Assembly: GCA_963716725.1 (NCBI GenBank)
Contig: CAVQUB010000021.1
Location: forward strand, 320,001 to 384,000
Direction: 5' to 3'
DNA length: 64,000 nt
Origin: an uncultured delta proteobacterium
Lineage (GTDB): Bacteria; Myxococcota_A; Polyangia; Polyangiales; Polyangiaceae
The translations under genes and the position numbers were made by a program. Below are positions 26,494 through 32,485 of this stretch, piece by piece; positions within the stretch are counted from its first letter, which is position 1, and every line of letters starts with the position of its first letter. The notes beneath the pieces were generated by a model that was not told the origin of the DNA, ran no database searches, and saw nothing but the letters and a program-made list of their open reading frames with translations.

Positions 26494-26976
26494 ATGAAGC
26501 CCTCAGTGACCGAACCGGGCTTCTGGATGCGCATCGCGACGGATGGCATCGCGGCCTCGAGCGAGGCGGTATTCCCGGAGAACGACCTCGGCGCCCCGGA
26601 TTGGAAATCCACCGAGATGGTGGCCCGCACCCTCGAGTACCTCGACGAGCTGCCGCCAAGACCGCGACGGCTGCTGGTGCTGTTGTTCGTCTTCGTCGAG
26701 CTCGCGGCCGTGGTTCTGCTGCTGCGATTCACCCGATTTTCACGCCTGCCGGTGGTGCGCCGCACGCGCGCTATCCGCGCTTGGCGCCGCTCGCCCTTGC
26801 TCGTGGTGCGCGTGCTCGGCGACTCGCTCAAGGCGACCACCACCATGATGTTCATGTCGCATCCGCTCGTGATCGAGCACCTAGGTGAGTACCGCGCGAA
26901 CGAACGCCCCCTCGACCGCGTGAAGATCACGGCGCGCCCCGAGGCGCTCTCATCTCCGAGAGACGAGGCACCGTGA
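26494..26976 (+). CDS. hypothetical protein, putative partner subunit of the GMC oxidoreductase
   Basis: RFSRLP...R..A...W..S pattern typical of proteins preceding GMC enzymes; GTGA overlap with the GMC gene. Confidence 0.7.
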   Translation: MKPSVTEPGFWMRIATDGIAASSEAVFPENDLGAPDWKSTEMVARTLEYLDELPPRPRRLLVLLFVFVELAAVVLLLRFTRFSRLPVVRRTRAIRAWRRSPLLVVRVLGDSLKATTTMMFMSHPLVIEHLGEYRANERPLDRVKITARPEALSSPRDEAP

Positions 26977-28493
26977 GGCACGGCTTCGACGACGTGCGAG
27001 GCGGCTTCGACGTCGAGGCCGACGTGGTCGTGGTGGGCTCGGGCCCCGGAGGCGCCGTGGCCGCGGACAACCTCGCGCGCGCGGGCATGAAGGTCGTGGT
27101 GGTCGAGGCCGGGTCCGAGGTGCGGCCCGAAGACATGGTGCGGGACAGCCCGCGCTTCATGGCCCGTCACTACTGGGAGGGCGGCCTGCGCGTGATCCTC
27201 GGCACGGTCCCCAGCCCGTCGATGCACGGGCGCTGCCTGGGCGGCGGCAGCGTGGTTAACTCCGCCATCATGCTGCCCCTGCCCGGTTGGGTGCGGCAAG
27301 AGTGGCGTGACGAGAGCGGCGTCGCTCACTTCGACGGGCCGGAGCTCGACGCGGCTTACGCTCGCGTGTTCGCCCGTTGTCGCGTCTCACCGACGCCGAT
27401 GACGGTGTTCGGCCGGCGCAACCGCCTGGTGCGCGACGCCATCGAGGGCGTCGTGGGCGAGAAGGGAGGCGGGCTGCCGCGCGCGGTGGTCGACTGTGAA
27501 GGCAGCTCCGACTGCCTGACCGGCTGCGCCGGCGGGCGAAAGCAGTCGGTCGATCGCGTGTACCTGCCCACGGCGGAGGCGGCTGGCGCGGAGGTCTACA
27601 CGCACAGCCAAGTCGACCGCGTTCTGATCGAGGGCAAGCGGGCGGTGGGCGTGGAAGGCGACGTGATCGAGGTCCCGGGTTGGCAGAAGCGCGGGCGCTT
27701 CCGGGTGCGCGCCAAGATGGTGGTGCTGGCGGCCGGCACCATGAACACGCCGGTGCTCTTGCAGAAGAGTGGCGTCAACCCACGCGGCCTGGTGGGCGCG
27801 ACGCTCTTCGCCCACGTGGGCGGCGGGATCGTCGGCATCATGGACGAGGTCGTCGATCCCTGGGTGGGTGCCACCCAGGGCTGGGGCGCCATCTCGAAGG
27901 AGATCCGCGGCCTCAAGTACGAAGCACTGTGGGCCTCGCCCGGCCTGTTGATGGTGCGCTGGGGCGACGTCGGTCGGCGCTTCGTCGAGCGACTCGACGA
28001 GGTGAAACACGCGGTCGTGGTCGCGCTGGTCTACCGCGGCGACGTGCACGGCACGGTCAAGGCGACACGAAGCGGAGAGCCCAGCAGTCGGCTTTGGATC
28101 CCGGAGAAGAACGTGGCGCCGGTGATGCGCGGCATGAAGAACGCCGCCGATGCACTGCTCTCCCTCGGCGCTCGCTACGTGCACACCGGACTGGTGAGCG
28201 TGGTCGACGAGATGAGGAACGCGCGGGACACCGAGAGCCTGCTGTCGCCGAGGGTCAAAGCCAAGCACATGGCGATGACGATGAACCACACCTTCGGATC
28301 CTGCCGCATGACCGCCGATGACCGCGGGCCGGTCGATCCGGACGGCAAGCTGCGCGGGCTCGAGGGGCTGTATGTCTGCGACGCGAGCGTCTTCCCGAGC
28401 CCGAGCGCCGTGAACCCGCAGGCCACCATCATGGCCTTGTCCGACATCACGTCCCGCAAGCTGGGCGAGCTTTCGCTGTCCGAAGCGCCCTAG
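26973..28493 (+). CDS. GMC family oxidoreductase
   Basis: VVVGSGPGG, GRCLGGGSVVN, CxxxxxCxxGC, LAAG...TP, H.FGSCRM, DASVFP...VNP. Confidence 0.92.
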   Translation: MRHGFDDVRGGFDVEADVVVVGSGPGGAVAADNLARAGMKVVVVEAGSEVRPEDMVRDSPRFMARHYWEGGLRVILGTVPSPSMHGRCLGGGSVVNSAIMLPLPGWVRQEWRDESGVAHFDGPELDAAYARVFARCRVSPTPMTVFGRRNRLVRDAIEGVVGEKGGGLPRAVVDCEGSSDCLTGCAGGRKQSVDRVYLPTAEAAGAEVYTHSQVDRVLIEGKRAVGVEGDVIEVPGWQKRGRFRVRAKMVVLAAGTMNTPVLLQKSGVNPRGLVGATLFAHVGGGIVGIMDEVVDPWVGATQGWGAISKEIRGLKYEALWASPGLLMVRWGDVGRRFVERLDEVKHAVVVALVYRGDVHGTVKATRSGEPSSRLWIPEKNVAPVMRGMKNAADALLSLGARYVHTGLVSVVDEMRNARDTESLLSPRVKAKHMAMTMNHTFGSCRMTADDRGPVDPDGKLRGLEGLYVCDASVFPSPSAVNPQATIMALSDITSRKLGELSLSEAP

Positions 28494-28558
28494 TGCCGCG
28501 CGGCAGAAGTTTCGCTGGTTTCTTTTCCGTGTGCGTGTCGTCGGTGTAGTGGGGTGAC

Positions 28559-29215
28559 ATGATCGACTACAGCGCGTTCGCGGGCCGAGCGCACGGTGGT
28601 CGTCCGACGGTTCCGCTCGCGCTGAGGGCTGAAGAGCGCGCGCGGATCGAGGAGGCGTTGCGACCCGCCAGGGCGGAGCAGCGGCTGGTTCGTCGGGCGC
28701 AGGCCGTGTTGATGATGGCGGACGGAGTGCCTGCGACGGACATCGCCCGGCTCCTCGGGGTGCACGTGCGCACGGTGGACGACTGGCGCAAGCGCTTCGA
28801 CTGCGCGGCACCTAGCGAGAGACTGGCGGACGCCCCGCGCTCGGGACGGCCGCCCTCTCTCTCTCGGACACCGTAGCGGCTCGAGTAGAAGCAGAAGCGT
28901 GTCGACCGCCGAGCGACGTCGGCGTGCCCGTCACGCACTGGTCAGCGTCGTTGCTTGGCGTGCACGTTCGCGCGCAAGGAATTCAGATCAGCGACCGGTC
29001 GGTGGGCCGCATACTCAAGGATGCTGACCTGCAACCGCATCGGCAACAAATGTACCTGACTTCGCACGACGACGAGTTCAGGGGGAAGCGCGACGACGTG
29101 CTGCGCGTCTACTACGAGACGCCAAAGAAGGAGCACATCGTGTGCGTCGACGAGAAGACCGGCATCCAGGCGCTCGAACGCCGCTACGCTGACATTCCGA
29201 TGGTGGCCGGACAGC
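28559..29215 (+). pseudogene. IS630 transposase, orfA (HTH) plus -1-frame orfB truncated after the first catalytic Asp
   Basis: orfA RAQAVL..ADG....IARLLG....TV..WRKRF...LADAPRSGRP; the frame change is at (CT)5 28855-28864; orfB THWS..LL, SVGRIL, VCVDEKTGIQALER; no second D or E region follows. Confidence 0.85.
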
Positions 29216-29248
29216 AACTGTTTCGGAGTGAGGCCCGACCACACGGGG

Positions 29249-29744
29249 ATGGCACAGGAAGGGCGAAAGCTCGGAAGATTTGGGGATGGGACGGACGAGG
29301 TGATCGGTGCGCTGATCGAGGTGCATCGGCATCTCGGTCCAGGGCTGATGGAATCCGCATATGAGGCCTGTCTATCTGCCGAGCTGTCCGAACGACGGCT
29401 CAAGTTCGAGCGGCAGCGACCGCTACCAATCCGCTACAAAGGCGTACACCTTGACTGCGCCTATCGCCTCGACCTGGTCGCTTTCAGATCGTATCCTCCT
29501 GGAGCTCAAGGCGGTCGAGCGGCTGCTCCCGATTTACGAAGCGCAGGTCATCACCTATCTGCGCCTTTCGCGGTTGCCCGTCGGCCTGCTCGTCAACTTC
29601 AACGTGACCGCGCTCAGAAATGGCCTGCGGAGGCTAACGCCTGACCACCCCAAATCCTTCCGCTCTTCCGCCCTTCCTGTGAGAGCCCAAATGAGCGCAG
29701 GTCCCAGAGGCGAATCCACTCGAACTTCGGCCGCGCGGCACTAG
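29249..29744 (+). CDS. GxxExxY family (PD-(D/E)XK-like) protein, apparent frameshift at TTT 29482-29484
   Basis: IGALIEVHRHLGPGLMESAYEACL, YRLDLV, ELKAVE, AQVITYLRL...GLLVNFN; removing one T joins the two track ORFs. Confidence 0.88.
29253..29681. repeat. ~33-bp imperfect inverted repeats bracketing the GxxExxY gene (29253-29285 and 29648-29681)
   Basis: CACAGGAAGGGCGAAAGCTCGGAAG-ATTTGGGG vs reverse complement CACAGGAAGGGCGGAAGAGCGGAAGGATTTGGGG. Confidence 0.85.
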
Positions 29745-31619: not shown

Positions 31620-32228
<609 letters not shown>

Positions 32229-32485
32229 GGCCGGGAGCGTTACGGGACAGCGACCCGCGGAGCAATGGATTTCACCGCTCGCGGATCGGCTCACGGACGG
32301 GCCGCGAGCACGCGAAGCTCGCGGCGCGTGGCCCGCAGCGAGTGGCCCGCGGCCTTGAACCGCAGGCGAGCAACGCTGTGGGATAGGCGCCCACAGCGTT
32401 GCGACTCGTCCACGAGATTGCGCGGTGCGAAGAGGCGGAATGGGGATACACTCAAGAGGTTGGTTCAGGCACCGGAGGTCTTGTC

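What the first reader, a model, noticed from the sequence alone, without database searches (positions are those of the whole stretch)
28490..29744. IS630 shell with both ends intact but catalytic half replaced by a GxxExxY nuclease-family gene
Seen: matching terminal IRs with CTAG at both ends; the left CTAG is also the stop codon of the GMC gene. The transposase stops about 20 codons after its first catalytic Asp (VDEKTG) at ~29215. The remaining ~500 bp up to the right IR are a GxxExxY gene whose frame reads into the IR and stops at the right-hand CTAG. Known: IS630 elements duplicate TA and need a D-D-E triad, so this copy cannot move on its own. Inference: either a non-autonomous IS630 derivative that carries GxxExxY as cargo and is mobilised in trans, or a GxxExxY cassette that invaded the IS and deleted part of it.
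Basis: partly seen in the sequence, partly recalled or inferred. Interest (0 to 1): 0.75.

Follow-up and report, generated by a model that had tools for sequence, protein, structure and literature searches.

The report
Multi-copy IS630 shell carrying dead GxxExxY gene
This is a crippled jumping gene of the IS630 family whose cutting domain was replaced by a small, now broken, nuclease gene cassette; it still occurs in many copies, so another element's enzyme probably moves it.

Summary
The structure is real. A 1,249-bp IS630-family element (28493-29741) lies in a CTAG site with a TA duplication, and its terminal inverted repeats are intact. It keeps the DNA-binding part of the transposase and the first catalytic Asp. 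Similarity to transposases stops at 29214. A ~450-bp GxxExxY (PD-(D/E)XK) cassette follows at 29249-29694, then ~33 bp of the original transposase 3' end and the right repeat.

It has a 1-nt insertion at 29480 and a second near 29682-29685, which puts the native TGA (29692-94) out of frame. That is the only reason the frame runs into the right repeat.

The chimera is not single-copy. The same junction ORFs and the same frameshifts recur on many contigs from independent assemblies. These include a second copy on a contig of the window's own length and copies with a different right flank. No near-identical intact parent was found (best 83-89% amino-acid identity). Best reading: a non-autonomous, MIC-like IS630 derivative moved in trans.

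Side finding: GxxExxY genes elsewhere also sit inside inverted-repeat-bounded ~440-470-bp cassettes, and the arms are dispersed hairpin repeats.

The parts
28490..28493 (.). Left CTAG. C = original target base, TA (28491-92) = target duplication, G (28493) = first base of the element. TAG 28491-93 is also the GMC oxidoreductase stop codon.
28493..28522 (+). Left terminal inverted repeat of the IS630-family element
   Evidence: I2: 33 nt, 82%
28559..28876 (+). orfA, 105 aa: helix-turn-helix DNA-binding part of the IS630 transposase (HTH_23/HTH_29; NF033545 positions 1-57). The identical protein is seen on 15 contigs.
28856..28865 (+). (TC)5 run where the reading frame switches from orfA to orfB. 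A sister copy (P0246) with (TC)4 gives one fused 267-aa ORF.
28864..29214 (+). Retained part of orfB (NF033545 positions 60-169 of 299), 81-86% identical to intact relatives. The first catalytic Asp is at 29149-29151. The second Asp and the Glu are absent.
29215..29248 (+). Left junction interval. It shows no clear similarity to transposase or to GxxExxY.
29246..29289 (+). 5' arm of the cassette's own inverted repeat. It is purine-rich and also encodes the N-terminal tail MAQEGRKLGRFGDG.
   Evidence: (I1)
29249..29694 (+). GxxExxY / PD-(D/E)XK pseudogene. It has a 1-nt insertion at 29480 and a second near 29682-29685. The native stop TGA 29692-94 is now out of frame.
29645..29688 (+). 3' arm of the cassette's inverted repeat. 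It is pyrimidine-rich and encodes the C-terminal tail HPKSFRSSALPV.
   Evidence: (I1)
29695..29708 (+). Right junction interval
29709..29741 (+). Surviving 3' end of the transposase gene (GESTRTSAARH), overlapping the right terminal inverted repeat (29712-29741)
29741..29744 (.). Right CTAG. C = last base of the element, TA (29742-43) = target duplication, G = original target base.

Best explanation
The window holds one copy of a non-autonomous IS630-family element of 1,249 bp. It resembles a mobile insertion cassette (MIC).

Shown:
- Both terminal inverted repeats are intact, with a TA duplication in a CTAG target.
- Only the DNA-binding part of the transposase and the first catalytic Asp remain.
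- About 440 bp of the catalytic domain is replaced by a ~450-490-bp segment: one GxxExxY nuclease gene with its own 44-nt inverted-repeat arms.
- That gene is broken by two frameshifts. The first is shared by all 15 sister copies examined and the second by 12 of them.
- The same chimera is present on many contigs.

Inferred:
- The chimera arose once and the cargo gene then died. The finished chimera spread by cut-and-paste into TA sites, using a complete IS630 transposase supplied in trans that recognises the same ends.
- The retained orfA (or the 267-aa fused product in some copies) can still bind the ends. It may act as a regulator or competitor.

The origin of the chimera is unresolved between two routes. 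One is insertion of a hairpin-bounded GxxExxY cassette into the IS followed by a deletion. The other is abortive gap repair after excision, with template switching into a cassette.
For: Ends and target.

Truncated transposase:
- NF033545 positions 1-57 and 60-169 of 299 only.
- No DDE_3 (PF13358) hit on the 146-aa ORF, whereas intact relatives carry PF13358.
- The alignment with six intact relatives diverges after ...PMVAGQ.

Cargo:
- TIGR04256 scores 77.6 and 51.6 bits in two frames, against a cutoff of 35.
- The intact homologue P0013 aligns as residues 1-77 = 29249-29479 and 78-147 = 29481-29690.

Multi-copy:
- Junction ORF P0121 (99% identity, 100% coverage), P0244 (identical, on 3 contigs), P0247, and fused P0246 on a 448,439-bp contig.
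- orfA is identical on 15 contigs, with variants on contigs of 798,724, 301,977 and 247,026 bp.
- The right-junction ORF cluster has 31 members. Of the 15 listed, all 15 share the 29480 frameshift. Twelve read through the IS end, and 3 of those 12 continue into a different flank (YGRIAFLK...).
- The window's flanking proteins (GMC, YedE, beta-helix, 244-aa protein) are each on exactly one contig, of 448,439 bp.

[quoted passage not shown] Insertions are into TA, which is duplicated, and the N-terminal HTH domain binds the repeats (PMC2170065, passages read). MICs and MITEs are defined as IS derivatives activated by a cognate transposase (PMC3129680, passages read).
Against: - No transposition was observed.
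- No DNA of the sister copies could be read. The source genome is not in the genome collection (one search found only 3 loci, none of them the window). Copy number, flanks and TA duplications of the other copies are therefore inferred from protein clusters and contig lengths.
- The large contigs carrying sister copies could belong to several related genomes rather than one. That the second copy lies on the window's own contig rests only on equal contig length (448,439 bp).
- No intact partner was found. The closest intact orfB relatives are 83-89% identical over the retained part.
- Ten NCBI/ENA relatives and their cluster members sit on contigs of other lengths than the seven element-bearing ones.
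- An empty-site allele could not be shown.
Confidence: 0.75

Rival explanations
1. A single-copy, decaying IS630 relic that happened to be hit by a GxxExxY insertion and deletion, and has had no mobility since.
For: There is no second copy in the 64-kb window. No chimeric copy was found in the genome-collection scan.
Against: Identical or near-identical junction ORFs occur on many other contigs and in independent assemblies. Variant copies P0246 and P0308 are on a contig of the window's own length but differ from the window's sequence. Three of the 15 listed copies have a different right flank.
Confidence: 0.05
2. The many database copies are the same GMC-adjacent locus sampled in many related strains, or were spread by duplication or recombination rather than by transposition.
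For: Related strains exist. The GMC 90% cluster has 6 members, one of them on 10 contigs. Only protein-level evidence is available.
Against: The window's exact flank proteins are on 1 contig each, whereas the exact orfA is on 15. Contig lengths that carry element ORFs (529,270; 798,724; 301,977; 482,600; 144,117; 247,026) never appear among the flank-gene clusters (133,028; 134,232; 61,170; 49,521; 19,134; 2,951). The tail ...AARHYGRIAFLK shows another flank. Many copies lie on 0.9-1.6-kb contigs, as collapsed repeats do.
Confidence: 0.12
3. The GxxExxY nuclease itself moves the unit, either as a cassette-driven element or by homing, and the IS630 ends are irrelevant.
For: GxxExxY genes elsewhere are inverted-repeat-bounded inserts. 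One has an empty site in a related species.
Against: All 15 of the 15 listed sister copies carry the same frameshift through the PD-(D/E)XK core. Twelve of the 15 also carry the same second frameshift and the same IS630 right end. The unit that multiplied therefore includes the IS ends and a dead nuclease gene.
Confidence: 0.04
4. An assembly chimera at 29215 or 29700.
For: None was found.
Against: Both junctions are spanned by ORFs recovered from separate sources (ENA, NCBI, JGI/IMG, MGnify).
Confidence: 0.02

Closest known systems
Mobile insertion cassettes (MICs) and other non-autonomous IS derivatives (MITEs, internally deleted copies)
   Same: The element has IS-type terminal repeats, no working transposase and a passenger gene. 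It is multi-copy and is expected to depend on a cognate transposase (definition read in PMC3129680).
   Different: It keeps the whole DNA-binding half of the transposase gene, which is often intact. The passenger is a pseudogene that is itself a selfish-looking cassette. That MIC231 of Bacillus is the type example is recalled, not checked here.
ISY100 / IS630 / Tc1-mariner cut-and-paste elements and their mini-transposons
   Same: It has an N-terminal HTH transposase domain, short terminal repeats and TA target duplication. In that family the ends alone suffice in cis (PMC2170065). That IS630 itself prefers CTAG is recalled.
   Different: No DDE triad is present here. The family here is organised as two ORFs (orfA 105 aa, orfB 250-305 aa). 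In several relatives orfB reads through the right repeat to the TAG of the target (P0125, P0128, P0195).
Internally deleted Tc1/mariner, P and Ac/Ds elements with filler DNA from abortive gap repair (recalled; no paper read here)
   Same: An internal segment is replaced by foreign DNA of similar size while both ends are kept (~440 bp lost, ~450-490 bp gained).
   Different: This mechanism is not demonstrated for bacterial IS630. Microhomology at the junctions could not be tested without a close parent sequence.
ORF-bearing intervening sequence of 23S rRNA (Coxiella IVS, 428 nt, with the S23p ORF)
   Same: It is a small selfish element of about the same size, with one short ORF (PMC4990558; only the start of the abstract was seen, in the search listing). 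That the IVS forms a stem cut by RNase III is recalled.
   Different: The ORF family is different (four-helix bundle versus PD-(D/E)XK). Here the host is an IS or an intergenic spacer, not rRNA. RNA processing was not tested.
REP/REPIN repeats with their RAYT gene (recalled)
   Same: In other genomes the GxxExxY arms are members of dispersed hairpin repeat families that mostly lack an ORF.
   Different: The enzyme is a PD-(D/E)XK fold rather than a HUH/tyrosine transposase. GxxExxY genes are themselves multi-copy. No activity on the repeats is known.

Membership tests
IS630 family insertion sequence | Terminal inverted repeats at both ends | tested here: met
   A 22-nt repeat at both ends against 0 expected by chance. 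It extends to 33 nt at 82%. The same tip lies at the 3' ends of IS630 copies in L001 and L003.
IS630 family insertion sequence | TA target duplication (CTAG site) | tested here: met
   C-TA-[element]-TA-G is read directly from the sequence. The family rule is taken from PMC2170065.
IS630 family insertion sequence | Transposase with an N-terminal HTH domain that matches the family model | tested here: met
   NF033545 is the best hit for both pieces (E 1.5e-10 and 7.8e-16). Each piece scores below the 100-bit full-length cutoff because it is a fragment. The retained part is 81-86% identical to relatives carrying PF13358.
IS630 family insertion sequence | Complete DDE catalytic triad (autonomous element) | tested here: not met
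   Only profile positions 1-169 of 299 are present. There is no PF13358 hit, and the alignment with six intact relatives ends 21 codons after the first Asp.
Non-autonomous IS derivative / mobile insertion cassette | IS ends without a working transposase, plus a passenger gene | tested here: met
Non-autonomous IS derivative / mobile insertion cassette | Several copies with the same internal structure at different sites | tested here: met
   Tested at the protein level only. Junction ORFs occur on many contigs. All 15 of 15 listed copies share the first frameshift, 3 of 15 show a different right flank, and the window's flank genes are on one contig.
Non-autonomous IS derivative / mobile insertion cassette | A cognate autonomous element in the same genome that moves it | tested here: inconclusive
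   The best intact relatives are 83-89% identical and come from other records. None is on a contig of matching length.
GxxExxY protein (TIGR04256 / Pfam PF13366 PDDEXK_3) | Match to the family model above its cutoff | tested here: met
   TIGR04256: 77.6 bits (positions 3-65) and 51.6 bits (positions 67-114), cutoff 35. PF13366: 72.8 and 50.1 bits, cutoff 22.
GxxExxY protein (TIGR04256 / Pfam PF13366 PDDEXK_3) | One intact open reading frame | tested here: not met
   The two halves are in different frames and the native stop is in a third frame.
Hairpin-bounded GxxExxY cassette (proposed here, not an established family) | Inverted repeats bracketing the gene beyond chance | tested here: met
   In the window, 30 of 37 nt pair and 0 of 200 shuffles reach that score. 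The same holds in 3 of 8 plasmid loci (L004, L006, L007). One locus is marginal (L008) and four have none within 110 nt (L005, L009, L010, L011).
Hairpin-bounded GxxExxY cassette (proposed here, not an established family) | Presence/absence polymorphism with ends at the repeats | tested here: inconclusive
   There is one case, between species. fabD-fabG is contiguous in S. paeninsulae and carries a ~437-bp arm-bounded insert in S. parapaucimobilis. This was not testable for the window's cassette.

The most novel reading that the evidence does not exclude
GxxExxY genes form a very large family of unknown function: 33,457 representative clusters at E<=1e-3. They may be the coding form of a widespread, cross-phylum class of hairpin-bounded selfish cassettes of ~440-470 bp. 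The ORF-less hairpins litter intergenic spacers, which makes the system a PD-(D/E)XK counterpart of RAYT/REPIN or of ORF-bearing rRNA intervening sequences. On this reading the window shows nested parasitism. One such cassette entered an IS630, destroyed its transposase, died, and was then multiplied as passive cargo by the IS630 machinery.
Probability: 0.3. Interest if true: 0.7.

Novelty: new member of a known kind. Interest (0 to 1): 0.42.

Why it matters
The element itself is a clear bacterial example of a transposon shell that lost its enzyme, picked up foreign DNA and kept spreading. Such elements break short-read assemblies and are routinely mis-annotated as several small 'hypothetical' or 'sigma-24-like' proteins; the names given by sources show this.

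The shared frameshifts date the death of the cargo gene to before the expansion. That rules out any selective 'cargo function' for GxxExxY here.

The wider value is the lead on GxxExxY. This huge, uncharacterised nuclease family turns out, in several phyla, to sit in discrete inverted-repeat-bounded inserts whose arms are dispersed repeats. That gives a concrete, testable hypothesis for what the family does.

Tried and rejected
It returned 3 loci, all in Polyangiaceae MAGs. L001 and L003 are contig ends with the 3' end of a distant IS630 (41% identity to P0125 over 34 aa). L002 is a solo repeat with no transposase or GxxExxY remnant. The source genome is not in that collection, so no DNA of sister copies, parents or empty sites could be read.

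2. Other copies in the window: none, by blastn or tblastn.

3. Near-identical intact parent: none. Matching contig lengths for ten NCBI/ENA relatives found no shared length.

4. Empty-site allele. Two JGI contigs (2,951 and 19,134 bp) carry flank genes, and no JGI-sourced element ORF is listed on contigs of those lengths. This is only suggestive and is not used as evidence.

5. Rfam: nothing for the element (one isrG hit at 14 bits against a 100-bit cutoff). The plasmid cassettes gave only sub-threshold miRNA-hairpin hits.

6. PADLOC: no hit. PDB by sequence: no hit.

7. Foldseek search of an AlphaFold model (pLDDT 81). There were 0 matches at E<=0.001. The best were Cas4 SSO0001 (E 0.018) and archaeal Hjc. 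This fits a PD-(D/E)XK fold but says nothing more specific.

8. RNA stem versus DNA repeat. Of 16 mismatches in four arm pairs, 4 would be G-U on the sense strand, 3 on the antisense strand and 9 neither, so the test is inconclusive. The RNA fold does pair the arms (z = -3.5), but any inverted repeat would do so.

9. Literature. 'GxxExxY' is held by 3 papers, 2 of them listed. I read the one passage in PMC8934634 and it is unrelated; for the other listed paper I saw only the title and the start of the abstract. 'PDDEXK_3' appears in 1 paper, as a table row giving the function as unknown (PMC3424549). The arm motifs gave 1 unrelated paper.
Full report
**What is there.**

The window is GC-rich (67.8%). 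At 28490-29744 it carries an element whose ends are a matching pair. The 22-nt pattern CTAGTGCCGCGCGGCMGAAGTT occurs once on each strand, at 28490-28511 and 29723-29744, and nowhere else. None of 100 shuffles gave a match. The repeat extends to 33 nt at 82%.

Read as IS630 chemistry, the left end is C-TA-G... and the right end is ...C-TA-G. The element proper is therefore 28493-29741 (1,249 bp), the TA is duplicated, and the original target was CTAG. The TAG at 28491-28493 ends the GMC oxidoreductase ORF 26973-28493. An empty site would give the same stop codon, so the insertion did not alter that gene. The element lies between convergent genes.

**The transposase half.**

ORF 28559-28876 (105 aa) carries HTH_23, HTH_29 and HTH_28 domains and matches positions 1-57 of the IS630 model NF033545. 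The stretch 28864-29215, in another frame, matches positions 60-169 of 299.

The frame switch lies in a (TC)5 run at 28856-28865. A sister copy (P0246, 267 aa) reads ...RSGRPPSLSDTVAARVE... in one frame, which corresponds to (TC)4. Among intact relatives, separate orfB proteins of 250-305 aa dominate both searches. The 105-aa orfA is the common state among copies. The two-ORF layout is therefore probably native to this IS clade and not decay. This is an inference.

Aligned with six intact relatives, the protein agrees up to ...VCVDEKTGIQALERRYADIPMVAGQ (Gln at 29212-29214) and then diverges completely. The first Asp is at 29149-29151. The second Asp and the Glu are gone, and no DDE_3 domain is detected. 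At the far end, 29709-29741 still reads GESTRTSAARH, homologous to the C-terminal GESGGTSAERN of P0125. In several relatives (P0125, P0128, P0195) orfB normally reads through the right repeat to the TAG of the target. Reading into the repeat is thus a family trait that the cargo frame imitates here by accident.

**The cargo.**

Between the two junction intervals (29215-29248 and 29695-29708) lies one GxxExxY gene, 29249-29694. It is broken.
- The N-terminal half (TIGR04256 positions 3-65, 77.6 bits) and the C-terminal half (positions 67-114, 51.6 bits) are in different frames.
- The intact homologue P0013 aligns as residues 1-77 = 29249-29479 and 78-147 = 29481-29690. This is a 1-nt insertion at 29480, between the catalytic Asp strand (RLDLV) and the ELK motif.
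- Intact relatives end ...LPV(R/K/Q)SK-stop, and sister copies P0306 and P0315 end ...LPVQPK-stop. The window reads ...LPVRAQMSAG..., with the native TGA (29692-94) one base out of frame. This second 1-nt insertion near 29682-29685 is the only reason the frame runs on to the right-hand CTAG.

About 146 codons (~440 bp) of orfB are missing and 446-494 bp were gained, so the chimera is about as long as its inferred parent.

**The cargo has its own inverted repeat.**

Arms 29246-29289 and 29645-29688 (44 nt, 77%, I1) bracket the gene. None of 200 shuffles of the flanks reached the observed score. They pair in the predicted fold of the segment (z = -3.5).

The arms encode the N-terminal tail (MAQEGRKLGRFGDG) and the C-terminal tail (HPKSFRSSALPV). 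These tails are conserved among the closest homologues. In an AlphaFold model of P0013 (mean pLDDT 81) they are the low-confidence parts, with residues 1-9 and 139-143 below 50. This suggests that conservation acts on the nucleic acid rather than on the protein.

**Is the chimera single-copy? No.**

The window has no second copy. The protein collections, however, do contain the source's gene calls. The exact GMC, YedE, beta-helix and 244-aa flank proteins are each on one contig of 448,439 bp. Against that background:
- The ORF that crosses the left junction (146 aa) has a 99%-identical, full-length match (P0121), an identical one on 3 short contigs (P0244), a shorter call (P0247), and the fused form P0246 on a 448,439-bp contig.
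- The exact orfA is on 15 contigs. Point variants are on contigs of 798,724, 301,977 and 247,026 bp.
- The 127-aa ORF that crosses the right junction belongs to a 31-member cluster, of which 15 members were listed and read. All 15 contain the out-of-frame stretch that marks the 29480 insertion. Twelve read through to ...STRTSA(A/G)RH. Three of those twelve continue into a different flank (YGRIAFLKRLASANMSTFVNT). Two end at the native stop. One is divergent.
- The 127-aa variants sit on contigs of 144,117, 301,977 (5 contigs), 448,439 (P0308, which differs from the window's copy), 482,600, 529,270 and 798,724 bp. None of these lengths except 448,439 appears among the flank-gene clusters, whose other members lie on contigs of 133,028, 134,232, 61,170, 49,521, 19,134 and 2,951 bp.
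- Other copies come from 0.9-2.5-kb contigs in ENA, JGI and MGnify, as expected of a repeat that collapses in short-read assemblies.

Two conclusions follow. The chimera spread after it had formed and after its cargo gene had died. The junctions are not an assembly artefact.

One limit applies. All of this is protein-level evidence.

**Parent and partner.**

No near-identical intact element exists in the collections searched. The best intact orfB relatives are 83-89% identical over the retained part (P0122, P0317, P0395 and others). Ten NCBI/ENA relatives and their cluster members lie on contigs of other lengths. The same terminal 22 nt occur at the ends of a much more distant IS630 in another Polyangiaceae MAG (L001 and L003; the transposase C-terminus is only 41% identical over 34 aa). 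The end sequence is therefore shared beyond close relatives, which makes a compatible helper plausible.

**Mechanism.**

In ISY100, an IS630-family element studied in vitro, the N-terminal HTH domain binds the repeats and the transposase alone excises and integrates. TA is the target and is duplicated. Mini-transposons with 30 bp of each end work as well as the full element (PMC2170065, passages read). IS derivatives without a transposase that are activated by a cognate one are the defined classes MITE and MIC (PMC3129680, passages read).

The element here meets the cis requirements and lacks the catalytic ones, so trans-mobilisation is the best-supported explanation of its copy number. This is inferred. 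Its orfA, identical on 15 contigs, could still occupy the ends and modulate transposition. That is speculation.

**How the chimera arose.**

Two routes remain open. (a) A GxxExxY cassette inserted into orfB and a deletion followed. (b) Gap repair after an excision aborted and switched template into a cassette. Route (b) is how filler-containing internal-deletion derivatives are thought to arise in eukaryotic cut-and-paste elements; this is recalled, not read here. Without the DNA of a close parent the junctions cannot be tested for microhomology.

**Side finding on GxxExxY.**

tblastn against 72,556 plasmid records found the family in 8 records.

In the three annotated cases that have clear arms, the gene is wedged co-directionally between housekeeping genes:
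- fabD-[GxxExxY]-fabG in Sphingomonas.
- radA-[GxxExxY]-FAD protein in Bacteroides.
- ade-[GxxExxY]-guanylyltransferase in Bernardetia.

Inverted repeats bracket the gene far beyond chance in those 3 of the 8 loci (0 of 200 shuffles each). They are marginal in 1 (L008, 2 of 200) and absent within 110 nt in 4. In one of those four (Gemmatirosa), the gene, which is frameshifted, is instead flanked on each side by a complete ORF-less hairpin.

The arms are purine-rich at the 5' end and pyrimidine-rich at the 3' end, and are built of ~9-mers such as CACAGAGGA. They are dispersed repeats:
- The Gemmatirosa hairpin has at least 40 places per record.
- The Bacteroides arm has 97 places in 22 records, including 94% matches in Gemmatirosa, a different phylum.
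- The Sphingomonas arm has 21 places in 10 records.
- The Bernardetia arm matched only itself at full identity, plus one weak hit (85%, E 0.5) in a Yersinia record.

In two fully read Bacteroides records the motif pairs form four ORF-less hairpins, one solo arm and one GxxExxY cassette.

fabD-fabG is contiguous in S. paeninsulae and in at least four other genera (835-921 bp against 1,291 bp). The S. parapaucimobilis copy is therefore a ~437-bp insert bounded by the arms.

The family is very large: 33,457 representative clusters at E<=1e-3 and 15,407 at E<=1e-10. I found no paper describing these features. Papers outside the searchable library may exist. The curated family descriptions were not available to me.

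**Verdict.**

The element is a new member of a known kind: a non-autonomous, MIC-like IS derivative. The more unusual lead is that its dead cargo belongs to what looks like a separate, widespread class of hairpin-bounded cassettes.

Noticed in passing
L004 1489-1925; L006 1422-1893; L007 1445-1895; L005 1287-1369 and 1872-1955; L012 5405-5580, 8749-8889, 12841-12859; L014 25910-26040, 39760-39842: In several phyla, GxxExxY genes sit inside ~440-470-bp units bounded by inverted repeats. The repeats have purine-rich 5' arms built of 9-mers such as CACAGAGGA. The same arms form many ORF-less intergenic hairpins. The Bacteroides and Gemmatirosa arms are ~94% alike even though they come from different phyla.
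   Followed up: partly
L004 1483-1946 versus L013 ~440-520: fabD and fabG are contiguous in Sphingomonas paeninsulae and in other genera. In S. parapaucimobilis they are separated by an arm-bounded GxxExxY insert of ~437 bp, which amounts to an empty-site comparison between species.
   Followed up: yes
L002 2001-2022: A solitary copy of the IS630 terminal repeat (25 of 25 nt identical to the window's left end, including 3 flanking bases) in another Polyangiaceae MAG. No transposase or GxxExxY remnant lies beside it.
   Followed up: partly
L001 1-141 and L003 1-137: Two contigs of one Polyangiaceae MAG begin inside the 3' end of an IS630 whose last 22 nt match the window's repeat. Its transposase C-terminus is only 41% identical to that of the closer relative P0125, so the end sequence is conserved across divergent IS630s.
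   Followed up: partly
window 28856-28865: A (TC)5 run lies exactly at the orfA/orfB frame switch. A sister copy with (TC)4 has one fused ORF. This is a slippage-prone tract that could serve frameshift-dependent transposase expression.
   Followed up: partly
proteins P0125, P0128, P0195 (relatives); window 29709-29744: In several intact relatives orfB reads through the right terminal repeat and ends ...SAERN or ...SGGRN. This implies that its stop codon is the TAG formed by the duplicated TA plus the target's G.
   Followed up: no
proteins P0424-P0437: The best-scoring representatives of the GxxExxY profile are 263-295-aa proteins with two matched stretches. They are either tandem-fused double GxxExxY proteins or read-through of adjacent cassettes.
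   Followed up: no
window 31620-32294 (-): This ORF has runs of eight or more consecutive Asp residues, and the opposite strand reads as a Ser run. It was not examined.
   Followed up: no
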